DNA from: a virus
Lineage: Duplodnaviria > Caudoviricetes
Direction: 5' to 3' (one strand)
Length of the DNA: 37,547 bases
Virus record (IMG/VR): IMGVR_UViG_3300018080_000343
Location: 1-37,547 of that record
This document shows positions 3,914 to 35,496 of this stretch, in pieces. The notes under the pieces are model-generated. The model did not search any database and was not told the DNA's origin. It saw only the letters and a list, made by a program, of their open reading frames with translations. Made by a program: the position numbers and the translations under genes. Position 1 is the first letter of the stretch. Each line of letters opens with the position of its first letter.

Positions 3914-4366
3914 TTATTCGACCTCTTCGAATTGAATTTTTACCTTCTGGCCGCGGAAAGTAATAATCGCCCCTCGCATGTCGCAGTTGCATAATATCGC
4001 CCTGGACAAATCCGCTTCGGATAAATTCGCTTCGTACAAATTCGCCCTGGATAAATTCGCTTCGTACAAATTCGCTTCGTACAAATTCGCCCTGGATAAA
4101 TTCGCTTCGGATAAATTCGCCCTGGATAAATCCGCTTCGGATAAATCCACTTCGCACGAATTCGCCCTGGACAAATTCGCTTCGTACAAATTCGCTTCGT
4201 ACAAATTCGCCCTGGATAAATTCGCTTCGGATAAATTCGCCCTGGATAAATCCGCCCTGTACAAATTCGCCCCGGATAAATTCGCCCGTTCGCCGCCCTC
4301 TTTCGATTCCAGCCATAACATGTGCTTTCTCAGCACCTCTGCCAATTCTTCTGCCGTCATCTTCAT
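3914..4366 (-). CDS. pentapeptide repeat protein
   Basis: ELAEVLRKHMLWLESKEGGERANL N-terminus, then tandem A(N/D)L(S/Y)(E/R) pentapeptides (15-nt DNA repeats, about 3999-4290); start moved to ATG 4366 (MKMTAEEL). Confidence 0.92.
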   Translation of the reverse strand: MKMTAEELAEVLRKHMLWLESKEGGERANLSGANLYRADLSRANLSEANLSRANLYEANLYEANLSRANSCEVDLSEADLSRANLSEANLSRANLYEANLYEANLSRANLYEANLSEADLSRAILCNCDMRGAIITFRGQKVKIQFEEVE

Positions 4367-4439
4367 TTTCCCGCCCTCGTTGGTTAGTGGTTGCCGCTCT
4401 TTCCCTGCCAGGAAGGTAAAAGGGTGTTCGGTGTCATTT

Positions 4440-4730
4440 CTCGCTGTCACCCGGTTTTTGATGTTTTCCCTGGAGCACGAATTAAAACGCTGGTGACGTT
4501 GCTTTTCCACAGAACACGCTTCACGCGTGCGCGTGTGCGCGGGTACGCGCGTGCGCCCGCACACGTGAGTATGTTTCGTGAAAAATGGTGTCACCAACGT
4601 CACCCTCTCTCTCTCTCTCTCTCTAAGTTTAGTAGTAGTAGTAGTTTAGTATTTATTAGTAGAAGAAAAAAACGGTGACGTTCGTGGTGACGGTGACGTT
4701 CATCTCTGTGACACCCCACCCAAAAAAATG
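4440..4730. other. putative replication origin region
   Basis: Non-coding region downstream of the primase-helicase with several GGTGAC(G)/GTCACC copies in both orientations flanking (CT)10 at 4605-4624, (AGT)5 at 4631-4645 and an AT-rich tract. Confidence 0.5.
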
Positions 4731-4733
4731 AGA

Positions 4734-6539
4734 TTAAAATAATTCCTCATTTTCCTCATCCTCATCCAAAAATAAATCAATCGGTGTCCACCAAAATCGC
4801 CGATGTTTCGTTCGCTGAGCTTCGGCACCCGGAACTCGTTGCATGATTTCCGCGATCGACGATCTATTCCAGCGAGTTTTCGCCAACAGGTGCCGCTTTA
4901 CCCTGGTTGTGTTTACCCTCACGCCGTCACCGACGACAACGAGCCCACATTTATCTAGTGCTTTTTCTGCGTCCGTACGCTGGCTGGAATAGCCGTCACG
5001 CACAATTTCGATTAGTTGCTCCACCGACAGCCGGCCCAACTCTCGGCCTGCGTCAACGTGCGAGGAGCGGAGGGTTTCGAATAAATCCTCTGCGTCGGCC
5101 ACTACTTCGCGAGTCATCACTTCCGAATTTTTGACGAAATCCCGCAACACTGACTCGCCGCTCACGCCGATCGCAAGAGCGAACATTGCCGCAGGGACGC
5201 TGTACGTTTCTGTAACGCGATTCGAGAAACCATCCAGCTCCAGGCCCCCTATCTCGCCCGCAAGCGTCACAGCGTCGCGTACGAGCCTCACGGAGGTTGC
5301 CAATAATTTCAGCCCGACGGCCTCGCACTCCGTCTGCGTCGGCTGAATTATCGTTGGTGATCCGGGGGCTTTCGGTAATAATTCAATTCTCACAAATCGG
5401 TCAGCGTCAGTTTTTGTGGTCAGCCCCGATTCAATTCCAGCCAGCCAGAATATTTGTGAGAGTGCTTTTTCTGATCGGCCCCGCCCCTCACCGGTCCACC
5501 GCTCGTCTTCTCCCCGGCCGGCTGGTCGCACCACAGTCTCGATGATATCCTCTCGGTGCGGATTTTTATCGAGTTCGTCCATCACGGCAATTTTCGCCGA
5601 CGATCGGCAGTGCTTCATTATTCCGATTGCCGTTGTTTTCCTGCTGGCAGATTCCGCCAATCCGCAAAACATTCGCTTCAGCATCCGGAAAAAAATAGTC
5701 TTGCCGCTGACGGTTTCGCCGGTGATCGCGACTTGTGGCCGCCAATCCCAGAATTTTTGCACCCATGTTGCGAGGATCAATCCTAACGCGAGTTCGGCCC
5801 CTTTGTGAAATTGATACCGCCATCGCCTGAGAAGCCCCAGAGCATCGAGCACGGCCTGCTCATCTGATTTCTGGTTGCCATTTTCGATCAGCCGGCGAAA
5901 TTGGCAGTTGTCGCAGTCCCGCGAAGTGCAAAACCAATTTGGGTTCCCGGCCAGGTCGTAAAGACGCCCGTCGCATCGCGGCATGGCGTCGCAAATTAAA
6001 TGCTCACCGTTCCAGATCGATTTCCAGCCATCGCCGACGAGAACCACATTCCGGCCGCTTTCCCAGCAGCCGGCTTCCCGCTTCGAATCGTCAACTAATT
6101 TCGGCCGGCGCCCGGCTGCGTCGGCGATCAGCATTCGCACTTCCTCCAGTTGCATCATGCCGGCTCTGGATTCTGAGCCGCGGTGAACCTTCGCCTTGAC
6201 GACCGCCTTTGTGCAAATTTGAGCGAGTCGAGCCATCTTGATCCGCTCGATGTCGCGAATCCGCGTAAACTTCCGGGTTGTGGTACAAAATACCTCCACC
6301 GATCCGTCCTCATATTCGCCGATTACATCGAGCCCCAGTTCGGCCAGCATCGCATCGTCGGCTGTCTGCTCCTCTTCTTTTGCCCTGGCCGGTGTGTAGA
6401 CTTCTGACCGATCTCGCATCGCGATCAGTTCGCGGGCGATGTCGTCGCGAGTTTTGCCGGCTTCTCTCTGGCCAATAATCCACTCGCGAATATCGCCAGA
6501 CGGCGGAATGATCTTGCGGACTTCCATGCCACAACTCAT
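4734..6539 (-). CDS. primase-helicase C-terminal part (end of Toprim plus P-loop helicase)
   Basis: Begins VRKIIPPSGDIREWI, resembling the last Toprim strand/helix; Walker A ITGETVSGKT; Walker B IAVMDE. Confidence 0.75.
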   Translation of the reverse strand: MSCGMEVRKIIPPSGDIREWIIGQREAGKTRDDIARELIAMRDRSEVYTPARAKEEEQTADDAMLAELGLDVIGEYEDGSVEVFCTTTRKFTRIRDIERIKMARLAQICTKAVVKAKVHRGSESRAGMMQLEEVRMLIADAAGRRPKLVDDSKREAGCWESGRNVVLVGDGWKSIWNGEHLICDAMPRCDGRLYDLAGNPNWFCTSRDCDNCQFRRLIENGNQKSDEQAVLDALGLLRRWRYQFHKGAELALGLILATWVQKFWDWRPQVAITGETVSGKTIFFRMLKRMFCGLAESASRKTTAIGIMKHCRSSAKIAVMDELDKNPHREDIIETVVRPAGRGEDERWTGEGRGRSEKALSQIFWLAGIESGLTTKTDADRFVRIELLPKAPGSPTIIQPTQTECEAVGLKLLATSVRLVRDAVTLAGEIGGLELDGFSNRVTETYSVPAAMFALAIGVSGESVLRDFVKNSEVMTREVVADAEDLFETLRSSHVDAGRELGRLSVEQLIEIVRDGYSSQRTDAEKALDKCGLVVVGDGVRVNTTRVKRHLLAKTRWNRSSIAEIMQRVPGAEAQRTKHRRFWWTPIDLFLDEDEENEELF

Positions 6540-6748
6540 CTTAAATGCGGAAAATCATATCTGTCGCCGCTGTAATCACGCACAACCGTTATCCCGCCAT
6601 TGCGAGTATTCACCACGTCGAAATTTCTATGTGCTGCCTCTTGCCACGGTTCCCAGCCCGCTTGGATCTCCGCACACATCGCACGAATCTCATCTTCGTC
6701 CGGCACAAGGTCACAACCACGCCCGCTAGGATTCGGATCAGCAATCAT
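6536..6748 (-). CDS. small hypothetical protein between the primase halves
   Basis: 70 aa, PDEDEIRAMCAEIQAGW motif; overlaps both flanking ORFs. Confidence 0.6.
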   Translation of the reverse strand: MIADPNPSGRGCDLVPDEDEIRAMCAEIQAGWEPWQEAAHRNFDVVNTRNGGITVVRDYSGDRYDFPHLR

Positions 6749-7655
6749 CGCATAACACCCCTATAGCTTTGTCGGCACCGCGATTGCCAACCTCGTCAGA
6801 ATCGCCAACCACGACAACCGATTTCCCTTCGAATGCCTTCCGCCATTCAGCCGGAAACGATCCGGCCCCGCAGACGTTGGCTACGGCAATGTCTGCGGCT
6901 GGAATAACACCCGCCAGTGCGAGAGCATCGGTTGTGCCCTCACATTTCCAGACCGACTTCGCCACTTGGAATTCATCCGGCGTGCCGATCACGACTAACC
7001 CATCGCCCTTGCAGCCGAGCATATGAGCCTTTCGCTCTGGCAGGCTTCCATACGATGAAAACGGCTGCCCGTCAGCCCGATAAATAATATGCCCCTTCTC
7101 TCGCCACGTCAGTGGATCGAATACGACAAACGCCAGCACTCGTTGCCGATCTTCGCGGTATGCCGCCTTGGGCCACCATGCAGCCGCCCATCGCACGCGA
7201 AAGAGTTGTGATGCCTCAATGCCCTGCTTCGCTCGAAGCCACGTTGTAGCCCACTGTCGCTTGTCCACGTCGCGGAAACTGAGCGAGTCATCAGCCGTGT
7301 TTTTCCTGGCAGACTTCAGCCCCAGGTAATCTGCGATTCGCTGGCAAGCCTCTTTGAAATCCACATCAAGCATCCACTGCACAGCCGCAATTCCGTCGCC
7401 CGATTTTGGCGACGTGTCTCCGTTGTGGCAGTGCGAGCAAAAAACAGCACCAACCAATTCATCGAGCATCCGAAACCGAGTTGACCCGCCGCATTTTGGG
7501 CAGGGGTGTTCTCGTTTTGAGCCGTCCAGGATGTCGGATGGGATACCGCCCAGAGAGGAAAGGATTTCCCGCCAACGTCCGGCTGCGGCTTGCTTGATGT
7601 CGGAGGCTTTCATCTGCAGTTTCCGGTCTCCCGATATTTTCAAGTAAAAGACCAT
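6738..7655 (-). CDS. DNA primase N-terminal part (Zn ribbon plus Toprim)
   Basis: AAGRWREIL, HPCPKCGGSTRFR...CSHC zinc ribbon (P4-alpha/TraC-like), Toprim CEGTTDALAL and VVVGDSD. Confidence 0.85.
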   Translation of the reverse strand: MVFYLKISGDRKLQMKASDIKQAAAGRWREILSSLGGIPSDILDGSKREHPCPKCGGSTRFRMLDELVGAVFCSHCHNGDTSPKSGDGIAAVQWMLDVDFKEACQRIADYLGLKSARKNTADDSLSFRDVDKRQWATTWLRAKQGIEASQLFRVRWAAAWWPKAAYREDRQRVLAFVVFDPLTWREKGHIIYRADGQPFSSYGSLPERKAHMLGCKGDGLVVIGTPDEFQVAKSVWKCEGTTDALALAGVIPAADIAVANVCGAGSFPAEWRKAFEGKSVVVVGDSDEVGNRGADKAIGVLCDDC

Positions 7656-7988: not shown

Positions 7989-8236
7989 CAGATAACCTCT
8001 TCTTCTTCCTCTGGCGACGGCATCCCCATGTCATCCATTCGCACAACGCGGATTGCCGGCAGGTTGTATCCTTCTGATTCGTAATCGTTTTTTGATGGAT
8101 GCTTTCCGCCCCATCTGCTTTTTCTTTTTCTCGCGAGATTCTCACGCCGAATTTTGCGGCATTCCCTCGCGATTTCAGCCGGAGTCGGGCAGTAACGGCA
8201 ATTGATTATCACCCCGTCTGGATCTACCGTTTGCAT
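7988..8236 (-). CDS. small hypothetical protein (related to 6536-6748)
   Basis: PTPAEIARECRKIR motif; start provisionally moved to ATG 8236. Confidence 0.5.
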   Translation of the reverse strand: MQTVDPDGVIINCRYCPTPAEIARECRKIRRENLARKRKSRWGGKHPSKNDYESEGYNLPAIRVVRMDDMGMPSPEEEEEVI

Positions 8237-8729
8237 GATTGTGCTTCCATACTTTTTCGAGCAGGCGAAACGCGAATAACTCGGCACGTCGCCGGCTACC
8301 GGGGAAATGAAAACTTACTCGCGGATACCGTACCATCCAGGAGGTTACAGTTGCCGCGGCTGCGTGAGGGTGAAATTCCGAACGCCAGTCGTTGTGATAT
8401 TTTTCCGGGCTGCAAAACTCTGGCCAACTCGCCTCGACAATCACCCACGTTTTTCGAAGCGAGAAATTCATGTGCTCGATTTGCTCGCGGAAAGCGTCGC
8501 GTCCGCACTTTGGCGACAGCGAGAGGTACGCATCATTCAGGCTTTTTCGCTCGATCGAAAACTCCGGGATACCTTCCACCTGGTAGTCACCCTCGTCAAT
8601 CGGCAGCCGGATTTCTCGCGTCTGAACTTCGACTGGCTGCATACGCGACTTGATCAGCATTTGGCAATCTTGAAAGAGCCACGGAGCACCTTCGTTTGTG
8701 TCAACTAAAATCGTGAATGGAGTTTTCAT
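8175..8729 (-). CDS. ERCC4/XPF-domain nuclease
   Basis: ILVDTNE, GDY, IERKS motifs (GD-x-ERKxxxD). Confidence 0.85.
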   Translation of the reverse strand: MKTPFTILVDTNEGAPWLFQDCQMLIKSRMQPVEVQTREIRLPIDEGDYQVEGIPEFSIERKSLNDAYLSLSPKCGRDAFREQIEHMNFSLRKTWVIVEASWPEFCSPEKYHNDWRSEFHPHAAAATVTSWMVRYPRVSFHFPGSRRRAELFAFRLLEKVWKHNHANGRSRRGDNQLPLLPDSG

Positions 8730-8914
8730 TTTTTGATTCGATCACGCATGTATCGCAACAAGCCGATCAAATTCTGACGAAACCGCTGTCTTCCTTCACG
8801 CTTTGAATCTGCTTCGGGGAAATGTGCAATGTCGTTGTTCAAACAATCCCACGCATTTTGATTTTCGACGAGAAAATCAAAGTCAATATCAATCAGGTGT
8901 TTATCGTACAGCAT
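8726..8914 (-). CDS. hypothetical protein
   Basis: 62-aa ORF overlapping both neighbours in the operon. Confidence 0.5.
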   Translation of the reverse strand: MLYDKHLIDIDFDFLVENQNAWDCLNNDIAHFPEADSKREGRQRFRQNLIGLLRYMRDRIKK

Positions 8915-10223
8915 CTTCCAGCTCCCTCATTTTTTCGACGGCCATTGTCTTGCGTTTCCACAGGTGCGACTTGCGGCACCAGTCGCTTAGCGTCTGAGGT
9001 TTCGCGATGCAAACACAGAGTTGTTTGGCCCGACTGATTCCCGTGAGAACCCAGTGCCGATCGCATAGCCACTTAGCCCCGCTGCTTTCATCGCCGACGA
9101 CGAAAACAACCGGAAATTCTGCCCCTTGCGATTTATGGCAACTTATCGCATACGCCAATTCCCACTTGCCGGTGTCATCATCACCGCTGCTTCGCGGCTT
9201 ACTCACTCGCACAAGTCGATCTGGCGTATCAAGCTGGCAGATCGTGTTGCCGCCGTCAACTTCAATCACACGGGCCTGCTCGCCGTTGGCGACGTACACC
9301 CGCCGCTGATCATTCATCTCTTCACTGGGACAGCCAGGGGCAGCGAGATACCAGCCGTTTTTGCCGCACACGATTTTGTCGCCTTCGCGGTACGGGTTAC
9401 CCTTCGCCTGCTTGCCGGTTGGATTGAGATAGCCTTGCAGCATCGGGTTGAGTTTCTTCCGGCTGACTTCTGATTTTTCGTTGAGGGGCACAATCACCTG
9501 AGCATGCCAGATGGGGTCAACAACATCCTGCGACCAGTCCCATGCCGCTGACGTTGGATCGAGCCAATCGCGTAGCGCCTGCGTCTGTTCTGCCGGATTC
9601 TTCCACTCGCGATCAACGTGCAGATTCTCGCCTGCCGCCAGGTCGATTTCTGGCGAGTGTTGCCACTTACCTTCTTCCGCTATCAGCTTGCAGGTCTTCA
9701 CAATCCGGCCGGCGTTGCGGTGGATTTCCGTGAGGTGTCCACGCGGAACTCCCAACGCAATCATATCGCGGAATGGGGCACCGTGACCGACTGGCGGTAG
9801 CTGGTTCGGGTCGCCGATAAACAGGACATGGCCACCTTTCCGCCGTGCTGCCAGGAGGGAAGCCATCAGCGACGAGTCAATCATGCTCGCCTCGTCCACG
9901 AAGACAAACTGATGAGGTAGCGGGTTGCTCCGGTTATAACCGAAGTATCCGGCACCCTCCAGGTACGTGTAGGCGAGCAGCCGGTGTATCGTGGTGCAGT
10001 CTAGCCTGATGCCTTGCTCGCCGAGTGCTTCGGTCATTCTCCTGGCAGCCTTACCAGTCGGTGCCGCCCCCGCCATTCCGCTGCTGCCGTTGCGTTGGCG
10101 TAGCTGGCGGATCAGGTGCCCAAGGCAAGTAGTCTTGCCGCTGCCGGGTCCGCCGGTGAGTAGCCCCACCGTGCCGATGGTTGCGGAGTTGAGGGCGTCG
10201 AGTTGGTGGGCGGTTAGTTGCAT
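8901..10223 (-). CDS. recD2: RecD2-like SF1B helicase, C-terminal (motor) half
   Basis: Q motif LTAHQ, GGPGSGKTT, AAPTGKAARRM, TIHRLL, VDEASM, GDPNQLPPVG, LTEIHR, AYAISCHKSQGAEF, TGISRAK. Confidence 0.9.
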   Translation of the reverse strand: MQLTAHQLDALNSATIGTVGLLTGGPGSGKTTCLGHLIRQLRQRNGSSGMAGAAPTGKAARRMTEALGEQGIRLDCTTIHRLLAYTYLEGAGYFGYNRSNPLPHQFVFVDEASMIDSSLMASLLAARRKGGHVLFIGDPNQLPPVGHGAPFRDMIALGVPRGHLTEIHRNAGRIVKTCKLIAEEGKWQHSPEIDLAAGENLHVDREWKNPAEQTQALRDWLDPTSAAWDWSQDVVDPIWHAQVIVPLNEKSEVSRKKLNPMLQGYLNPTGKQAKGNPYREGDKIVCGKNGWYLAAPGCPSEEMNDQRRVYVANGEQARVIEVDGGNTICQLDTPDRLVRVSKPRSSGDDDTGKWELAYAISCHKSQGAEFPVVFVVGDESSGAKWLCDRHWVLTGISRAKQLCVCIAKPQTLSDWCRKSHLWKRKTMAVEKMRELEDAVR

Positions 10224-11206
10224 CCAAATATGTCCCCAATATCATTCGTTCGCTGCAACCCGGCGACACGTTCGGCGACAGCGTAGCACTCAACACCTCA
10301 CAATCCCAAACCAATCATTCGTTCGCTGCAACCGGCAGGTCCTCTGGTACGCGACCTGCCAGGGCGATCTCACAATCCCAAACCAATCATTCGTTCGCTG
10401 CAACACCGATGAGCCAATGGCCGATGAAGAAACGCTCCTCCTCACAATCCCAAACCAATCATTCGTTCGCTGCAACTAAATCGGCGGCTGTTCCACTGAC
10501 TGTCGACCATCAGACTCACAATCCCAAACCAATCATTCGTTCGCTGCAACGCAGACGCGAAGCCGAACGCGAGCCGGAGTTCCACGCTCACAATCCCAAA
10601 CCAATCATTCGTTCGCTGCAACTTCCCCGATGGCAACCATCAATACTACCGCCAATCCAACTCACAATCCCAAACCAATCATTCGTTCGCTGCAACTACG
10701 CGACGCGTGGGGGCGTCTGGCGGACATACCCCCTCACAATCCCAAACCAATCATTCGTTCGCTGCAACCGAGTCATCGTTCGGGGTTCGATCACCCAAGC
10801 GAGCCTCACAATCCCAAACCAATCATTCGTTCGCTGCAACTTGCGGCCTGCGATAAGGGCTCCATCCTTTAGCCGGCACCTCACAATCCCAAACCAATCA
10901 TTCGTTCGCTGCAACCATCACAAAGGTTACTACATCAGCGTACTGCGGAACTCACAATCCCAAACCAATCATTCGTTCGCTGCAACGCGAAGGAAAGCGG
11001 CTTGCAGCGATACATGCCCGCCTCACAATCCCAAACCAATCATTCGTTCGCTGCAACAAGCCACGTCCGCGCGGCGGCGGCGTCCGCCAGTCCCCCTCAC
11101 AATCCCAAACCAATCATTCGTTCGCTGCAACCTCCCTAAACGTAGCCGGAACCTCTCCGGAACCTGGCCGCTCACAATCCCAAACCAATCATTCGTTCGC
11201 TGCAAC
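10224..11206 (-). CRISPR. CRISPR array: 13 identical 36-nt repeats plus one degenerate trailer repeat, 13 spacers of 35-39 nt
   Basis: Plus-strand repeat CTCACAATCCCAAACCAATCATTCGTTCGCTGCAAC starts at 10297, 10369, 10441, 10515, 10587, 10661, 10733, 10805, 10880, 10951, 11022, 11096 and 11171; partial copy at 10241-10259. Transcribed sense inferred as GTTGCAGCGAACGAATGATTGGTTTGGGATTGTGAG because the degenerate copy is distal to the effector gene. Confidence 0.98.
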
Positions 11207-11488
11207 TCCGTCGCCATAAGTCCTTTCGCCACAACGGGCCAAAGACATACTTGCGAGAGCCCCCTGCCGATTGGCACCTCTTCCAACCTTCCTTGCAAGT
11301 CCCAGCTTCGGAAACTCTTGCTCAGAAGGAAGTTCTGACACGCGAGCGGTTCCCGGCCTCACAAATCTACGGCACTGCTCGCAAATCGGTAACTGATCAG
11401 ATTTCACCATTTGCAAAAATCTTTTGCGCGACAGTCGCACCGACTTGCCACACACTTCGCATGGCAACTCACGACGAATCTTCGCCAT
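11189..11488 (-). CDS. small Zn-ribbon protein (CEVC...CEQC) overlapping the CRISPR leader
   Basis: ATG 11488 (MAKIRRELPCEVCGK) with GGGAG upstream, overlapping the effector stop; the frame stays open through the leader and stops inside the first repeat. Confidence 0.5.
   Translation of the reverse strand: MAKIRRELPCEVCGKSVRLSRKRFLQMVKSDQLPICEQCRRFVRPGTARVSELPSEQEFPKLGLARKVGRGANRQGALASMSLARCGERTYGDGVAANE
11207..11330 (-). promoter_or_regulatory. putative CRISPR leader
   Basis: Lies between the effector gene and the first perfect repeat, at the opposite end from the degenerate repeat; boundaries approximate. Confidence 0.5.
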
Positions 11489-12614
11489 TGTCAATATCTC
11501 CCAGTCGCAATTTGCGAACCTTGACTTCGATTCCACGACGCGCTGCCGCATTTTTCAAATCGTCCAGCCATCGCGTCCAGTTCCAAGTCAAGCCGTTTGC
11601 CTCGAACCAGCATTTTTCTTTGGTTGGATTGGTGGGTTCCAGGTACTCCAATACGCCACAGCGATGCCGCTCGCATTGCTTAACCACATCTACGATTGCC
11701 CGCCGTCGCACCTCGGTCACAATGTCGGCAAGTTGAAGATTGCGCTTCGATACCGCGATATCTATTTTCTTTCGTCCGTGCCCCGCCCCCATTCGCTGCC
11801 GATATCTCCAGCCAATCTGTTTTCGCACGCCGACTAAGCGAAGTGTCTGCGAAATCAGGTACCGTCCTGCACCAATTCCCCAGGCACGACTACGCCCCGG
11901 AATCTCTAGCGAAAACGGTCGCTCGATTTCTCCTTTGCCGATCACCGGTGACAATGTAGCTATTCGATCAGTATCAAGTTGTTCCGTTTCAAACGCGACA
12001 GGAATATACCAGTACCATTTCCCGCGACGCTCAAGCAATTTCGAGTCGGCTAGTTTGCGTTCACCTCTTGCCAAGTCATGGATAATCCGCTTAATGCCAG
12101 TCGGCACGCCCTTGAGTGAGATTGTAAAGTCCAGCGAAATCTGCAAACTATTTCGCATGATGTTGCGAACATGGACTTGCACATCGTCCTCAAAGACAAT
12201 CGTGGTATGTTTATTTGCGATAGGCACTGACAAATCCGTGTAAAATGCCGGCCGTTCCTCACGCCGCAGAATCGCATCTTTTCGTTTCGGTCTTTTGCCG
12301 TTATCCGCTACACCCTTTCGCCAATCTACCTTAGCAGCCAGGAAAGAATTGACCTGTTGGGCAATGTTGCTTGCAACATCGGTGCCAAGTCGCGGTACAG
12401 ACGTTGTAATTGCATGGTAAAGTTTTGTTGATTCCGACAAGGGCTTGCCTTGTCGGTTTAATTTCGCTTGTTTGGCTGATTCCTTCCGGCCGCGAGCCCG
12501 CAATAGCCAGTCTTCGCTGGCTACATTGCGGGCCTCGCGACACAGACGAGCAACTTCTGTCAGCTCTGCCGGCGGATCAGTCAACTTCAATTTCAAAACT
12601 GTTATTGACTTCAT
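11469..12614 (-). CDS. Cas12f/TnpB-like type V effector, predicted nuclease-dead and C-terminally truncated
   Basis: KWYWYIPVAFE (WED strand), LDTDRIATLSPVIG where RuvC-I (LDPDxxxGVDLG) is expected, GHGRKK, IVDVVKQCERHRCGVLEYLE (RuvC-II region), W...LKNAAARRGIEVKV; ends without the Zn finger or the RuvC-III D; adjacent to the array. Confidence 0.85.
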   Translation of the reverse strand: MKSITVLKLKLTDPPAELTEVARLCREARNVASEDWLLRARGRKESAKQAKLNRQGKPLSESTKLYHAITTSVPRLGTDVASNIAQQVNSFLAAKVDWRKGVADNGKRPKRKDAILRREERPAFYTDLSVPIANKHTTIVFEDDVQVHVRNIMRNSLQISLDFTISLKGVPTGIKRIIHDLARGERKLADSKLLERRGKWYWYIPVAFETEQLDTDRIATLSPVIGKGEIERPFSLEIPGRSRAWGIGAGRYLISQTLRLVGVRKQIGWRYRQRMGAGHGRKKIDIAVSKRNLQLADIVTEVRRRAIVDVVKQCERHRCGVLEYLEPTNPTKEKCWFEANGLTWNWTRWLDDLKNAAARRGIEVKVRKLRLGDIDNGEDSS

Positions 12615-13117
12615 ACCGGCATCAATTTCCCTCTCCGTTCAAGCTCGACGATTCGTCCCTCCAAAATTCCCCGCTGTCGCTCGCTCTCGTCAAGACGTTC
12701 GCGAAACATCGCAGCTTGCTCGCGATACTCTTTCACGTTCGCTTCAGCTTGATCCAGTTTCAACTGGAGTTCTTTGGCCAGAGCCTTCCAATTTGTCTTC
12801 TGGATTTCACCCGCTTCTTTCGTTGGCGTTGCCAGATCGATCATGGCCCATACGTTGTATTGATATTCAGCCCATGTCGATTTTTTCGGATTGGCTCGAT
12901 AGGCTCGAACCAGTTCTGATACCGATGGCGAACCGCCAAAATGCGCGAATTCCTCTTCCTGCAAATGATCCATCAATTGTCCTTCTCCTCCGAACTGGTC
13001 GACATACTCTTTGTCGGCCAGCAGTTCGTCAACCAGTTGCAGCATGCGAAAGATATTCTCTCGCGATTGTTTGGCGAGCTTCTTTAATTCTGCTCGCTTC
13101 TGTCCACTCGTACTCAT
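12611..13117 (-). CDS. unknown helical/coiled-coil protein, translationally coupled to the Cas12f-like gene
   Basis: 168 aa; ATGA overlap at 12611-12614; heptad-rich C-terminal third (WKALAKELQLKLDQAEANV...LEGRIVELE); AAGGA RBS. Confidence 0.8.
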   Translation of the reverse strand: MSTSGQKRAELKKLAKQSRENIFRMLQLVDELLADKEYVDQFGGEGQLMDHLQEEEFAHFGGSPSVSELVRAYRANPKKSTWAEYQYNVWAMIDLATPTKEAGEIQKTNWKALAKELQLKLDQAEANVKEYREQAAMFRERLDESERQRGILEGRIVELERRGKLMPV

Positions 13118-13157
13118 TTCATTTTCCTTTCAAAAACGAAGACTTAAAACAGGAACC

Positions 13158-13321
13158 ATCAATCAGACACAGCCGCTCGGTTTGGGATTTCCGCGTCCTG
13201 ACGTAATCCACATCGCGGATTTACGGAATTTGGCGAGAGGTCCGGCTGTCACATTAAGACCTCCGGCTGCTCGCCATTCGGGCTGTGAGCACCCGTTTGA
13301 CTACGGCTGTGCCTGATTGAT
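13158..13321 (-). ncRNA. putative tracrRNA/scaffold RNA
   Basis: 18-bp closing inverted repeat (13158-13175 and 13304-13321; the only mismatch is G-U on the minus strand), internal hairpins, 13-nt anti-repeat at 13177-13189 and a loop CUCACA (13284-13289) complementary to the repeat 3' end UGUGAG. Confidence 0.75.
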
Positions 13322-14283
13322 TGCTCCCACTTCGCCTCTCCCGCCAAACCAAAATCATCATCCAGTTCGTGCCAAGCGACATGAAGATCGGACACCCACG
13401 AAGATTCAGCGTCAGCTTTCGCTGACTCGGCGTACCATCGTCGCCCATCGCCATCCACCCGCTCGCGGATCATGTCCCGCTCGATTGCATCGGCTATCGC
13501 TTCTCGCACCTGGACAGTAGCTCCCGCGATCTTCGCGTCTAGCTCTTTGCGAATCACGCTTTCGAGAAGCCACGTGCTACCAGAAGAATCGGATTCAAGA
13601 GCGTACAGGGCACAATGCGTCTGCCGGATCAACGCGCCCATCGGCAAGCCAAGTGACTCGTATAGCCGATCACAGAGCAAAAACCCACAGCCGGCAAACC
13701 CGCGAAGCACATACGGATTGTCGCGGATCACCTGCACTGCACTTTCGCCCCACGCCTCGATGCATTTCTGCGAGGTTGACTTTGGAAAACCGCGATTTGC
13801 CAGAAGCCCCTCAACCTCAATCGTGATTGCTTCCAGTGCTTTTCTGGCAGAGAAAAACGACGATGCAGCCTCAACCGTCGTGACATTGAGGCTGCATCGC
13901 TTGGCCACGCTGGCCGGCTCAAGTCGCAATTTCTCTAGTGCCAGCTCTCCAAATTCTGCGACGATCTTGATTGCTGCTTGCGGACCGATGCCGTTTGCCT
14001 TTTGTAAATATCGCTGGATGGCTTGCAGGTCGGTCGGCTCAACCGGAGTAAACGAAGAAAATTGAAACTGCCGACCGAACCTATCGTGTGTTTGCACCCG
14101 CCCCAGAAACCGATACTTCTCACCCATGCACAGCGAGCCGGCCTTGGCATTTCCTACTACCGTTTGCCCGTCTCGCATTTTGCCAACCACCCAGCGATCA
14201 GCCGAATCGTCTTCGCCGATCGCCCGGTGTTCGTGGGAGAAGATCCCGATTAGTTCTTCGGTTTTTGGGGTTACGACTGGCAC
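13249..14283 (-). CDS. recD2: RecD2-like helicase, N-terminal half (OB-like plus HhH domains)
   Basis: HDRFGRQFQFSSF...IQRYL...GIGPQAAIKIVAEFG, VIRDNPYVL..FAGCGFLLCDRL, SGSTWL motifs of the RecD2/YrrC N-terminus; no P-loop; the last about 25 codons read into the RNA element. Confidence 0.85.
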   Translation of the reverse strand: MPVVTPKTEELIGIFSHEHRAIGEDDSADRWVVGKMRDGQTVVGNAKAGSLCMGEKYRFLGRVQTHDRFGRQFQFSSFTPVEPTDLQAIQRYLQKANGIGPQAAIKIVAEFGELALEKLRLEPASVAKRCSLNVTTVEAASSFFSARKALEAITIEVEGLLANRGFPKSTSQKCIEAWGESAVQVIRDNPYVLRGFAGCGFLLCDRLYESLGLPMGALIRQTHCALYALESDSSGSTWLLESVIRKELDAKIAGATVQVREAIADAIERDMIRERVDGDGRRWYAESAKADAESSWVSDLHVAWHELDDDFGLAGEAKWEQSIRHSRSQTGAHSPNGEQPEVLM

Positions 14284-14365: not shown

Positions 14366-14920
14366 TCAAAAAAATCCGCCGTCATCATTCGTGTCCGGTG
14401 TCGCGTATGGATCATCCACCGCGTCGAGGTCTTTGACTTTCGATCGGTCAACCGGAATTTTCAGGCGGGCAACTTCTTTGTTTTCCGGGTGCCAAAAATT
14501 CGAGTAGGGTACTTTGGCAACCTGCTTGCCCTTGTACTTGCCCTGCTCCTGCTCCTCATTAACAACCTCGAAGCAACACACCTTGCCGTACAGGTCGTCA
14601 ACCTCGTAGTTCAGCCCCCGGTTTTCCTTTCTGGCAGCCGCAATCAAATCGGCCGTCCAAACACCGGTAGCAACCAGCAGAGCAGCACGCCGCGAGCGAT
14701 TGCCTTTCTTCGCGTTTTTGTGAATATACTCGCGGTGCGTCTGCCCGACTTGATCCGGCTTCGTTCCGCTGAGGATTTCCAGCTCGACGAAGAACGATTC
14801 ATCTCCGTCATGCACTTCCGTCACCTGGCCGAAGTAATAGCCGGGTGCAACCAAAGTGAAAGAGCCACCGCTACCTACGGTATCTTCGTTCACTTCGTCG
14901 TCAAAGTATTCTTCTGGCAT
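14366..14920 (-). CDS. putative single-stranded DNA-binding protein (DUF669-like)
   Basis: LVAPGYYFGQVTEV beta-rich core and acidic-aromatic tail DTNDDGGFF; start moved to ATG 14920. Confidence 0.65.
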   Translation of the reverse strand: MPEEYFDDEVNEDTVGSGGSFTLVAPGYYFGQVTEVHDGDESFFVELEILSGTKPDQVGQTHREYIHKNAKKGNRSRRAALLVATGVWTADLIAAARKENRGLNYEVDDLYGKVCCFEVVNEEQEQGKYKGKQVAKVPYSNFWHPENKEVARLKIPVDRSKVKDLDAVDDPYATPDTNDDGGFF

Positions 14921-14924
14921 TTTT

Positions 14925-15320
14925 CTACCTTTCAAAATCGTATGGTGATTCCACCGGTGTTTTGTCCTCGATCCCACAACGCAGGAGCAATTCGCAAATC
15001 TCCTCCGGCGATACGTTTCGGCCATCAAAGCCCGTCAATTCCGCCAATACATCGCGAAATTCCCATAAAGCATCCCACGCGTCGTTGTAGACGCACAATA
15101 ACGGCACGTTTTTGTGAGACATTCTAATCCAACGGATCGTAAATTCGCCCGTCGTTCCACCTCCAGGATAGTACATGCCGATTGTAATTTCGTCTACATA
15201 ATCGTGGTCACGGTGAAGGCGAGTAGCACCATACCATGCCCGCGATAGATGGATGAATTGACGACGACATTCAGCGTGCTTCCCTGATAGGGAAAATCCG
15301 ATAGTGTTCATAGATGGCAT
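14925..15320 (-). CDS. hypothetical protein
   Basis: 131-aa ORF in operon position with AAGG upstream. Confidence 0.55.
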   Translation of the reverse strand: MPSMNTIGFSLSGKHAECRRQFIHLSRAWYGATRLHRDHDYVDEITIGMYYPGGGTTGEFTIRWIRMSHKNVPLLCVYNDAWDALWEFRDVLAELTGFDGRNVSPEEICELLLRCGIEDKTPVESPYDFER

Positions 15321-33333: not shown

Positions 33334-35496
33334 TTACCATCGGCCTCTTGTGAATTGTCCGGTTGTCGGCACCGCTGCAACTGGGGCAGGCGTCGATCTT
33401 CGCGCCTTGGCGGTCGGTGCCACCTTTTCTATCGTGCGGGTGATCGGCTCCAGACGCTCAATACCTCGCATAATGCGGCCAAGGATCGTCAACGCCGTGC
33501 TGTCCAAATAGTGATTCTGTTTTCGCACCTTCCACCAGCCGAGCCGGTTTTTCTTCCAGCCTTTTTCGAAGCGTTCCTCCCAGATTTCCGCCGTCACCTG
33601 AAACGCAAAGGTCTTGTGCGGCAATCGCGTGTCCGTCTCGAACACCCGAAGCGAGCCAGTGTAGCCCGTTTCTGTGAGAAACCCTGAATGCACTTGCAGC
33701 TTAAATGTGTCAGGGTCAAAAAGAATTACGCCTTCCTTACTGGCGTGCCATCCAGGTCCACCAATGTCCGCCCATTGCGGCCGGCGGTATGGGCTCCAAC
33801 CTTTCGTTGGAATAAATCGGAGCGTACCGACTTCCCGGCAGAACTTCCGCACGGGCTGCTCTTTCCAAGGCTCCTCTTTCCACCCCTCGTCGATCGCGAT
33901 CAAATCGACGTGATAGGGCAGTTTGTCGATCACCTCTGTTTTCCAATCGTGCAAAGCGTTGTAGATGCACAGATCCATTGTTTCGATAGGCAAGCCGGCA
34001 GAATGGAAATCGAAAAAATCGTAGTCCACGATCGAGCCGGCAGCCTCCGAGTTCCACGCGGTAGTGGTGTACTCCAGACCGGCCTTGCGAATGTCGACGC
34101 CGCAGACGATTCCCGTCGCGTCGTCTGGGATCTCCTGGCGTTTCAGCCCGGACCCACACTGATACATGATATGATCTGGCGTCAAAATCAACGGCTGCTC
34201 GGCATCTGCCGGCGGGTCGTTTTGGTGTTCCGTAAGAAACGAATCCATGCCGTTGTCGGCGATGTAGTCGTAGCATTTCTGCAGCGCCGATAAGTGCTCT
34301 GGCTGCTTGTCGTCGAGTAAATCGGTGTTGTAGTCGTGCCCCGAAGACATCTCGCAGCCAGCGTGCATTTTGTCGAATCGTTCCCGCAGAAAATCACGGG
34401 CTTCGCGGGCGTGCTTGTCATGCGGCTGTCGGTTGCGGCGTAGCTCAATATATGTCTCCCACAAATCGAGCCGATCGGGCCATTTGATGATTCGCGGGAC
34501 TCGCTGACCGTCCCAGGATGGCTTCTCGTCCCGGTCGGTGTACTGATAGGCCGCTGAACGCCGGCTAGTGATCGTACAGATAAACACCTTGCCAAGCCGC
34601 TTGTTCGGTCCGCCCAGCCCCGCGACAGTCTTGTCAATGCAATCCTCGATCTTTCCGGCTATTAGCCCTTGTTCGGCTGCGAGGCTGTCTCGGCTGTCCA
34701 GGTCGTCGAGCATAACGAAGTCCGGCCGGCGGTCGTAGATATTGAGCCCCTGAAGCGAATCAGACGAGAACCCCAAGCACATCAACACCGGCCCCAACTC
34801 GGTTTCGTTTTTGGGCAATCCGTACTTGACGGTCGCGTACTTCCCCCGCCCGTCCGGCAGACTGGGCAGCACGACGTGTTGCGGTCCCCACTCGACCCGG
34901 ACGGGCAACCCGCCCCATGTCACGCTGCGAGCCCTCGACGGTGCCGGCGCGATGTAGCGGCAGATCGATGTCTCAAACGGAAAATCCTCGTGCAGCTTTT
35001 TGTTGGTGATAGTCCGCAGCTTTGCCTTAATGTCACGCAAGATCTGTTCGCCCTTGGTTGTCGTGGCTGCGAGAATCAGCGGAAACTTCAGTTGCCGATA
35101 GAGAGCGTACTTGAGTTGGAGGTACTTGAGGATGGTAGACTTCCCGCTGCCTCGCGGCATCGCCATTGCCTTCGATGTGCCGTATCGAATCGCCCGGCCG
35201 CAGTCCTCGATGAATTGCTTTTGAGCGCTGGTGAATGGAGCATAGAACACATCGGGGAAATACGTGCGCAGGAACTTTTGGTCGTCCTTCTCGCAAGCTC
35301 GACGGCGTCGCGGATTCTGAACGATGCGGGCGGGAATGTCGCGACCCGACGACCGCATCTCCCGCTTGCGAATCGCGTCGGCTGCCCGCACTTTGTCGGC
35401 CTGCTCCGCTGGCATCCCCTTGAGCGCAGCCTTCAGTTTTCGCCGTTGCTCCTGCAACTTGCGGTCTGCGGCTCGTAGTTCTTCGATGGTTGGCAT
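33334..35496 (-). CDS. terL: terminase large subunit (GpA-type)
   Basis: Walker A AMPRGSGKST, Walker B VMLDD, FLTEHQNDP, nuclease CGVD, IAIDEG, NHYLDS; start moved to ATG 35496 (TAATG coupling). Confidence 0.9.
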   Translation of the reverse strand: MPTIEELRAADRKLQEQRRKLKAALKGMPAEQADKVRAADAIRKREMRSSGRDIPARIVQNPRRRRACEKDDQKFLRTYFPDVFYAPFTSAQKQFIEDCGRAIRYGTSKAMAMPRGSGKSTILKYLQLKYALYRQLKFPLILAATTTKGEQILRDIKAKLRTITNKKLHEDFPFETSICRYIAPAPSRARSVTWGGLPVRVEWGPQHVVLPSLPDGRGKYATVKYGLPKNETELGPVLMCLGFSSDSLQGLNIYDRRPDFVMLDDLDSRDSLAAEQGLIAGKIEDCIDKTVAGLGGPNKRLGKVFICTITSRRSAAYQYTDRDEKPSWDGQRVPRIIKWPDRLDLWETYIELRRNRQPHDKHAREARDFLRERFDKMHAGCEMSSGHDYNTDLLDDKQPEHLSALQKCYDYIADNGMDSFLTEHQNDPPADAEQPLILTPDHIMYQCGSGLKRQEIPDDATGIVCGVDIRKAGLEYTTTAWNSEAAGSIVDYDFFDFHSAGLPIETMDLCIYNALHDWKTEVIDKLPYHVDLIAIDEGWKEEPWKEQPVRKFCREVGTLRFIPTKGWSPYRRPQWADIGGPGWHASKEGVILFDPDTFKLQVHSGFLTETGYTGSLRVFETDTRLPHKTFAFQVTAEIWEERFEKGWKKNRLGWWKVRKQNHYLDSTALTILGRIMRGIERLEPITRTIEKVAPTAKARRSTPAPVAAVPTTGQFTRGRW

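What the first reader, a model, noticed from the sequence alone, without database searches (positions are those of the whole stretch)
8901..14283. recD2 is split in two by the CRISPR cassette
Seen: the RecD2 N-terminal domains (13249-14283) and the helicase motor (8901-10223) flank the cassette exactly. The RNA stem starts a few nt after ...GEAKW, and the degenerate repeat abuts the motor start. A TGGG at 13329-13326 and at 10238-10235 lies in the same codon phase, so removing the 3091 bp between them gives in-frame ...GEAKW-GHIWMQLTAHQ.... The motor half has GGGGA upstream of its ATG and intact motifs. Known: RecD2 is normally one polypeptide, and type IV CRISPR systems pair non-cutting effectors with DinG or RecD helicases. 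Inference: either a tolerated insertion giving a two-chain RecD2, an excisable element, or co-option of the freed helicase motor by the dead Cas12f. The 4-nt microhomology alone is weak evidence.
Basis: partly seen in the sequence, partly recalled or inferred. Interest (0 to 1): 0.8.

Follow-up and report, generated by a model that had tools for sequence, protein, structure and literature searches.

The report
Two-gene phage helicase hosting CRISPR cassette
This bacterial virus encodes its RecD2 DNA-unwinding enzyme as two separate genes, as related viruses without any insert also do, and a predicted non-cutting CRISPR module likely landed in the gap between them later, rather than splitting the gene or borrowing its motor.

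Summary
The anatomy is real. The RecD2 N-half (13249-14283) and motor (8901-10223) flank a 3.1-kb cassette: tracrRNA, orf168, RuvC-dead Cas12f, Zn-finger gene and a 13-spacer array.

The cassette probably did not cause the split. The closest fetched relative (L117, motor 51.5% identical, same SSB-recD2-ERCC4 order) has the halves overlapping with no cassette. Of 15 close loci, 4 are split at this domain border, none with a cassette. Of 114 classifiable motor homologues, 66 are stand-alone proteins, and the window's motor sits in a 10-member stand-alone clade.

None of 11 other cassette loci (only 4 long) abuts recD2, and one cassette-bearing phage has a fused recD2 about 8 kb away. The TGGG microhomology is at chance level (P 0.30-0.95). 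No transposase or intron was found.

Best reading: a recurrent two-gene RecD2 whose gap picked up a dCas12f module. That module likely binds sibling-phage DNA: spacer 5 matches a related terminase. Excision and helicase co-option are not supported.

The parts
13249..14283 (-). recD2 N-terminal gene (OB + HhH domains), 344 aa. Homology ends at Leu313 (nt 13345); the last 31 codons have no alignable counterpart and run into the tracrRNA, where the stop lies
13152..13327 (-). Predicted tracrRNA: 24-bp closing stem, anti-repeat 1 at 13289-13284 (pairs the repeat's 3' end), anti-repeat 2 at 13189-13179 (11 nt, pairs repeat positions 21-31), followed by a U-rich tract
12611..13117 (-). orf168: conserved cassette gene, helical N-domain plus C-terminal coiled coil, no known family
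11469..12614 (-). Cas12f-fold effector, 381 aa, predicted nuclease-dead: RuvC-I Asp position is Pro223, RuvC-II Glu326 kept, RuvC-III and Zn finger absent
11189..11488 (-). Conserved 99-aa CxxC-x22-CxxC Zn-finger gene; its stop codon lies in the first repeat
10241..11206 (-). CRISPR array: 13 identical 36-nt repeats, 13 spacers of 35-39 nt, terminal remnant keeping only the 5' 19 nt
10841..10879 (-). Spacer 5: 30/39 match to the phage's own terminase gene at 33775-33813, in frame, 11 of 13 residues kept; likely taken from a sibling phage
10233..10237 (-). Shine-Dalgarno-like GGGGA, 9 nt before the motor ATG
   Evidence: the motor start of cassette-free L117 also has a GGGGA shortly upstream
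8901..10223 (-). recD2 motor gene (SF1B helicase), 440 aa, motifs intact
14366..15028 (-). SSB-like gene upstream (synteny marker shared with L117, L106, L108, L114)
8175..8729 (-). ERCC4-type nuclease gene downstream (synteny marker)

Best explanation
The phage carries recD2 as two genes cut at the border between the N-terminal DNA-binding part and the helicase motor, an arrangement it shares with cassette-free relatives, and a predicted non-cutting Cas12f CRISPR cassette likely inserted later into the gap as a passenger. Shown: the two ORFs, the cassette, split cassette-free relatives, and cassettes at other sites. Inferred: each half is translated from its own start on the replication-operon transcript; the motor likely works as a compact SF1B 5'-3' helicase; the N-half, kept next to it, likely acts in trans on the same fork. 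Also inferred: the insertion likely removed or overran the N-half's old stop, giving a read-through tail into the tracrRNA, while the motor kept its ribosome-binding site. The cassette would work on its own. The tracrRNA pairs with the repeats through two duplexes, and dCas12f would bind rather than cut DNA matching the spacers, most likely genes of sibling phages, and block their expression or replication.
For: (1) L117, the closest fetched relative (motor 51.5%, N-half 45%, SSB-recD2-ERCC4 order), has the halves overlapping by 17 nt. No cassette gene or tracrRNA was found in its 34.7-kb record, with positive controls G001 and G004. Its N-half stops at the residue where the window's homology ends. 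(2) Of 15 distinct fetched loci with motor identity of 35% or more and an N-half hit, 4 are split (L117, L099, L100, L018) and 11 fused; none has the cassette. L099's halves abut, L100 has a small ORF in the gap and L018 a 285-aa ORF. (3) Of 120 listed motor homologues, 6 lacked a Walker A match and were dropped; of 114, 66 are stand-alone, 38 fused and 10 ambiguous. The window's motor lies in a 10-member stand-alone clade (support 0.99), and the tree needs at least 13 label changes. Of the best 150 N-half hits, 35 are proteins of 360 aa or less without a Walker A; the window's N-half groups with two of them (support 1.0). (4) None of 11 other cassette loci has a recD hit in the DNA held. G001 has the cassette and a fused recD2 about 8 kb away. 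(5) Cassette genes have GC3 of 0.50-0.52 against 0.59-0.68 in six resident genes. (6) The anti-repeat follows each locus's own repeat: 11-12 nt perfect in 4 of 5 loci, against 4-9 nt for cross pairs. It is also present in L005, which was outside the model. (7) Spacer 5 matches the own terminase at 30/39 against a shuffle maximum of 24, with mostly synonymous changes; the single L004 spacer likewise matches a head-region gene of its own phage. (8) In three public runs, contigs pass through both junctions as in the window; one may be the source sample.
Against: Only one member of the window's own stand-alone clade (L117) could be read as DNA; the context of the 79%-identical P0054 was not obtained. 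A cassette-first history with later loss in L117 is therefore not excluded. Stand-alone proteins from short contigs can be gene-calling truncations, so 66 of 114 is an upper estimate. Seven of the 11 other cassette loci are under 3 kb, and records G002 and G003 are incomplete. Twelve of the 13 spacers have no target found. No expression or activity of either half was tested.
Confidence: 0.76

Rival explanations
1. Cassette-first (Aeh1 nrdA-like): the cassette broke an intact recD2 in the ancestor of the window's clade, the two chains were tolerated, and lineages such as L117 later lost the cassette but stayed split.
For: The W of the N-half tail lines up with the conserved linker W of fused relatives, and the proposed join gives P0068's spacing of 10. 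Contexts of 8 other clade members are unseen.
Against: The earliest-branching clade member, L117, has no trace of the cassette. Splits at this border recur without the cassette (at least 13 changes). The contig lengths listed for P0054, P0056 and P0058 (48.5, 20.1, 35.4 kb) are not among those listed for 53 effector or 19 orf168 homologues (indirect). Lower GC3 suggests the cassette is not long resident.
Confidence: 0.12
2. Co-option: the freed motor serves dCas12f as a type IV-D-like helicase partner.
For: The motor is directly downstream of the array on the same strand. It matches PADLOC's typeIV_RecD profile at E 3e-44, as any RecD2 would. Type IV-D carries RecD (PMC7038947, passages).
Against: None of 11 other cassette loci lies beside recD. 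G001 has the cassette and a distant fused recD2. None of 10 recD2 records searched whole has the effector (control). The motor sits in the usual SSB-recD2-ERCC4 replication context.
Confidence: 0.05
3. Excisable or spliced element: removal at the TGGG pair restores one-chain recD2 at DNA or RNA level.
For: An in-frame join exists. A strong RNA stem starts at the left junction.
Against: The 4-mer is at chance level. The longest direct and inverted repeats between the ends are 5 nt, and junction-to-junction RNA pairing is no better than shuffles (64% as good). The stem is the tracrRNA and closes at 13152. Rfam gives no intron hit, and no transposase or recombinase hit was found in the cassette. 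The half-repeat at the right end is also seen in L004 and L005. The motor has its own start, as its clade does.
Confidence: 0.03
4. One half (most likely the N-half, with its read-through tail) is a decaying remnant and only the motor matters.
For: The N-half has 31 extra non-homologous residues overlapping the tracrRNA.
Against: The N-half is open over 344 codons, 45% identical to both the closest split and the closest fused relative over 305 residues, and present beside the motor in all 4 close split loci.
Confidence: 0.04

Closest known systems
RecD2 (TIGR01448; SF1B helicase; B. subtilis and D. radiodurans RecD2, PMC12143592)
   Same: OB + HhH N-terminal domain, complete SF1B motor, SSB neighbour
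   Different: Two genes cut at the N-domain/motor border. Searches listed no paper that describes this by title or abstract.
Type V-F1 Cas12f1 (AsCas12f 8J12, OsCas12f 9NZQ)
   Same: Fold (Foldseek E 2e-19, TM 0.66), GHGR motif, tracrRNA with two repeat-pairing segments, 36-nt repeats
   Different: RuvC-I Asp replaced by Pro in 52 of 53, RuvC-III and Zn finger missing, two extra conserved genes, no cas1/cas2 hit in the window, phage-borne
Array-linked, rpoE-less dCas12f cluster and sigmaE-dCas12f (Hoffmann et al., PMC13472631; PDB 9N9C)
   Same: C-terminal truncation removing part of RuvC; array-linked subgroup with an upstream covarying RNA, suggested to repress
   Different: No rpoE or HTH gene. 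The passages read describe bacterial loci, one aimed at an efflux promoter; this one is in a phage with orf168 and the Zn-finger gene and has a spacer against a sibling terminase. Their sequence lists were not compared.
Aeromonas phage Aeh1 nrdA split by mobE (PMC3045599)
   Same: Phage replication gene in two pieces with foreign DNA between and a novel tail on a piece
   Different: There the insertion made the split and the tails are essential. Here the split occurs without any insert, at a domain border, and only the N-half has a tail.
Type IV-D CRISPR-Cas with RecD (PMC7038947)
   Same: Non-cutting effector next to a RecD-family helicase
   Different: Class 1 multi-subunit system with conserved linkage; here a class 2 effector and no conserved linkage

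Membership tests
RecD2 (TIGR01448) | N-terminal OB and HhH domains | tested here: met
   PF23139 E 1.7e-7 and PF14490 E 5.9e-13 in the N-half
RecD2 (TIGR01448) | Intact SF1B motor motifs | tested here: met
   8 of 8 motif patterns found; profile positions 315-709
RecD2 (TIGR01448) | Both parts in one polypeptide | tested here: not met
   Two ORFs; scores 113 and 243 bits against the cut-off of 500
RecD2 (TIGR01448) | 5'-3' translocase/helicase activity | not testable with these tools
   Inferred from motifs only
Type V-F1 Cas12f nuclease | Cas12f fold | tested here: met
   Model pLDDT 94; top Foldseek hits AsCas12f; PADLOC Cas12u3/Cas12f E about 1e-10
Type V-F1 Cas12f nuclease | tracrRNA pairing with the repeat | tested here: met
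   Anti-repeat covaries with the repeat in 4 of 5 loci plus L005; predicted, no RNA data
Type V-F1 Cas12f nuclease | RuvC catalytic triad D-E-D and Zn finger in chain | tested here: not met
   Pro at RuvC-I in 52 of 53, Glu kept in 45 of 53, protein ends before the Zn finger and RuvC-III
sigmaE-associated dCas12f | Adjacent rpoE and HTH genes; single gRNA without array | tested here: not met
   No sigma or HTH hit among 49 ORFs; full array present
Array-linked dCas12f cluster (PMC13472631 Ext. Data Fig. 1a) | Phylogenetic placement within that cluster | not tested
   Only text passages and the legend were read; sequences not compared
Type IV-D CRISPR-Cas | Csf1/2/3 class 1 subunits with conserved RecD linkage | tested here: not met
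   No such Pfam or PHROG hits in 49 ORFs; linkage absent in 11 other cassette loci
IStron / group I or II intron / IS200-605 element | Ribozyme core or transposase with defined ends | tested here: not met
   Rfam: 3 hits, none near its gathering score and none an intron; no transposase hit in the cassette; end repeats of 5 nt only
Genes-in-pieces by insertion (Aeh1 nrdA type) | Empty-site relatives have the intact gene; the insertion created the break | tested here: inconclusive
   The closest empty-site relative is already split; fused relatives exist one node deeper (P0068, P0065); closer contexts not obtained

The most novel reading that the evidence does not exclude
Phages of this group have repeatedly turned RecD2's little-studied N-terminal domain into a separate, detachable subunit that tunes a free motor (strand switching versus processive unwinding). 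The gap between the genes is a landing pad for cargo. The cargo here is an undescribed three-protein dCas12f system (effector, orf168, Zn-finger gene that may be Cas12f's own lost finger) used for CRISPR interference against sibling phages.
Probability: 0.3. Interest if true: 0.65.

Novelty: new variant of a known kind. Interest (0 to 1): 0.36.

Why it matters
Two modest points remain. (1) RecD2's N-terminal domain is described as uncharacterised and is proposed to drive strand switching (PMC12143592, passages). Natural, repeated fission at this border offers ready pairs for testing the motor with and without that domain in trans. (2) The cassette is a compact phage-borne dCas12f system with a readable tracrRNA, two conserved unknown partners and spacers against sibling phages. 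Papers mention array-linked dCas12f only briefly, and earlier notes of this scan already describe similar cassettes.

Tried and rejected
Excision in reads: contigs of 7 runs show no joint at the junctions. The only joint is 10296-11171, which starts and ends at repeats and is most likely an assembly collapse. Contigs drop rare variants, so this is not proof of absence. No RNA holder was listed.

Complex prediction of dCas12f with the Zn-finger protein gave no answer (score 0.01, partner fold uncertain).

The idea that the Zn-finger gene is Cas12f's fissioned finger stays open: 12 members gave no PF07282 hit at E 10, and the PDB search gave two weak C2H2 hits.

orf168: no family; Foldseek nothing at E 0.001; VIA-align only generic coiled coils, with the N-domain barely tested.

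Spacer targets: none in 50,697 phage records or in 1.7-2.0 Mb of fetched loci, apart from spacer 5 and the L004 spacer. The terminase-motif scan found only this phage's own copies. Spacer 3's 18/20 self-match is within the shuffle range.

No effector relatives in GTDB genomes; the motor pattern there gave 3 matches with no tblastn hit, so the host is not identified.

P0054's locus was not in viral contigs; cluster membership look-up for these proteins was unavailable.

Promoter scan: no site near the cassette in the window. Same-strand sites lie upstream of the RNA in L003 and L012; L004's listed sites are on the other strand. This is weak.

Rfam: nothing. Earlier findings by place and by sequence: none.
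Full report
Setting. The window is a phage record (terminase, portal, capsid, tape measure, primase), with nearly all long ORFs on the minus strand. It is held in sediment and seawater metagenomes. The host was not identified.

Observation. The N-half (13249-14283) matches RecD2 profile TIGR01448 positions 27-308 and the motor (8901-10223) positions 315-709, so the two ORFs tile one RecD2. All 8 helicase motif patterns searched are in the motor. The TGGG pair is in frame as stated. An in-frame shared 4-mer appears in 30% of shuffles of the narrowest windows and in 85-95% of wider ones, and three other such 4-mers exist, so it carries no weight.

Is the split due to the cassette? Probably not. 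Of 120 listed motor homologues, 6 had no Walker A match and were dropped. Of the other 114, 66 start 20-46 residues before Walker A, 38 are fused and 10 are ambiguous. The window's motor lies in a clade of 10 stand-alone motors (support 0.99), and the tree needs at least 13 split/fused changes, though many nodes are weak. Protein lists can include gene-calling truncations, so DNA loci matter more.

Among 15 distinct fetched loci with motor identity of 35% or more and an N-half hit, 4 are split and 11 fused, and none has a cassette gene (L089 and L096 had no N-half hit and were left out). L117 is the earliest branch of the window's own clade (its proteins are P0067 and P0193). It keeps the SSB-recD2-ERCC4 order, has the halves overlapping by 17 nt, and has no effector, orf168, Zn-finger gene or tracrRNA in its 34.7-kb record; G001 and G004 served as positive controls. 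Its N-half ends at the residue where the window's N-half stops aligning, Leu313. In L099 the halves abut, L100 has a small ORF in the gap, and L018 has a 285-aa ORF of unknown function. Three more distant loci (L048, L049, L053) are also split. The N-half search agrees: 35 of the best 150 hits are 360 aa or shorter without Walker A, and the window's N-half groups with two of them.

Is the cassette tied to the helicase? No sign of it. The effector has 53 listed homologues (including itself) at 37-74% identity. Eleven other distinct loci were fetched. All carry the Zn-finger gene, the six that reach far enough upstream carry orf168, and none has a recD hit, though only 4 are long. One sits between terminase-side and portal-side genes, and one beside integrase-like and HTH-like ORFs (read from translations). 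Whole-record searches show that G001 has the cassette and a fused recD2 about 8 kb away; G002 and G003, both incomplete, have none; L012's record was not held. None of 10 recD2 records searched whole has the effector. Cassette genes have lower GC3 (0.50-0.52) than six resident genes (0.59-0.68), as expected of later arrival.

Excision or splicing. The stem at the left junction is the tracrRNA, not an intron: Rfam has no fitting hit, and the stem closes at 13152. No transposase or recombinase was found in the cassette. The two ends share only 5-nt direct or inverted repeats, and they pair as RNA no better than shuffles. A terminal repeat that keeps only its 5' part is also seen in L004 and L005, so it is not a junction scar. 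Contigs from three runs pass through both junctions unchanged.

What the cassette is. The AlphaFold model (pLDDT 94) matches AsCas12f best (E 2e-19, TM 0.66). The profile alignment to OsCas12f and AsCas12f puts Pro223 at or beside the RuvC-I Asp, with no conserved acidic residue in that strand (Pro in 52 of 53). It keeps Glu326 (45 of 53) and ends before the Zn finger and RuvC-III. Cutting is therefore predicted to be lost. The upstream RNA is conserved in six loci. Its anti-repeat follows each locus's own repeat: 11-12 nt perfect in 4 of 5 loci against 4-9 nt for cross pairs, with L003 imperfect. A second segment complements the repeat's last 6 nt in 4 of 5, and L005, outside the model, shows both. 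Spacer 5 matches the phage's own terminase at 30 of 39 nt (shuffle maximum 24), in frame, keeping 11 of 13 residues. L004's one spacer matches a head-region gene of its own phage with 7 of 8 residues and the stop kept. The pattern points to spacers taken from sibling phages. Twelve window spacers have no target found.

Mechanism. Shown: two genes, the cassette, split empty-site relatives, and unlinked cassettes. Inferred: one operon transcript; separate translation of both halves; a motor that works as a compact SF1B helicase; an N-half acting in trans; and a passenger cassette whose dCas12f binds sibling-phage DNA as a roadblock. The terminal remnant lacks the half that pairs with the tracrRNA, so it would not be processed next to the motor's ribosome-binding site (inference).

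Comparison with print. PMC12143592 (passages) calls RecD2's N-terminal region uncharacterised, proposes it drives strand switching, and notes that a form lacking 150 residues is active. PMC3045599 (abstract and outline) describes Aeh1 nrdA split by mobE. PMC7038947 (passages) defines type IV-D with RecD. PMC13472631 (passages and a legend) notes an array-linked dCas12f cluster. PMC10691335 (passages) notes inactivated Cas12f branches. Searches listed no paper on two-gene RecD2, and searches none on this phage cassette, judged from titles and abstract starts. The supplements of the two Cas12f papers were not read and may list the clade. That Pif1 and Dda are compact SF1B helicases is recalled; motif names (Walker A, RuvC-I/II/III) are recalled and placed by the alignments cited. 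Earlier notes of this scan describe similar phage cassettes; they are leads, not support.

Verdict. A real arrangement, but most likely a coincidence of two separately interesting things: a recurrent two-gene phage RecD2 and a passenger dCas12f cassette. New variant of a known kind; interest 0.36.

Noticed in passing
window 11189-11488 (-): Conserved Zn-finger gene starting just where the dead Cas12f stops short of its own Zn finger; in L005 it lies upstream of the effector instead. In several loci its stop codon is inside the first repeat.
   Followed up: partly
window 33775-33813 (-) vs spacer 5 (10841-10879): Terminase site with 9 mismatches to spacer 5, mostly synonymous; a TTT lies directly 5' of it, as a T-rich PAM would.
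   Followed up: partly
L018:7106-7963 and L100:9339-9752: Unrelated cargo ORFs (phrog_5931; no family) in the gap between recD2 halves, suggesting the gap collects insertions.
   Followed up: partly
proteins P0198, P0208, P0275, P0286, P0319: Fused RecD2 relatives of 1100-1210 aa with an intein-like insertion right after the Walker A lysine, about 25 residues downstream of the fission point (intein call from recalled motifs).
   Followed up: no
proteins P0244, P0266, P0290, P0308, P0337: RecD2 N-halves without a motor that instead end in a Zn-finger-like CxxCGRxL...GxGPxC domain.
   Followed up: no
L007:150-600: A second, degenerate array lies between orf168 and the effector in the 74%-identical relative.
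   Followed up: no
L012:7200-7510: Array with much shortened repeats (about 15-20 nt) and short spacers, yet the tracrRNA anti-repeat still matches over 11 nt.
   Followed up: partly
window 4734-7655 (-): The primase also appears as separate ORFs (305 aa zinc/primase part and 601 aa part), while L018 and L100 have one ORF of 805-847 aa there: a possible second fission in the same operon.
   Followed up: no
window 3914-4603 (-): Pentapeptide-repeat protein (PF00805, E 1.5e-43).
   Followed up: no
L003:13255-13495; L099 and L100 upstream of recD2: Low-complexity Gly-Tyr/Gly-Ser repeat ORFs in related phages.
   Followed up: no
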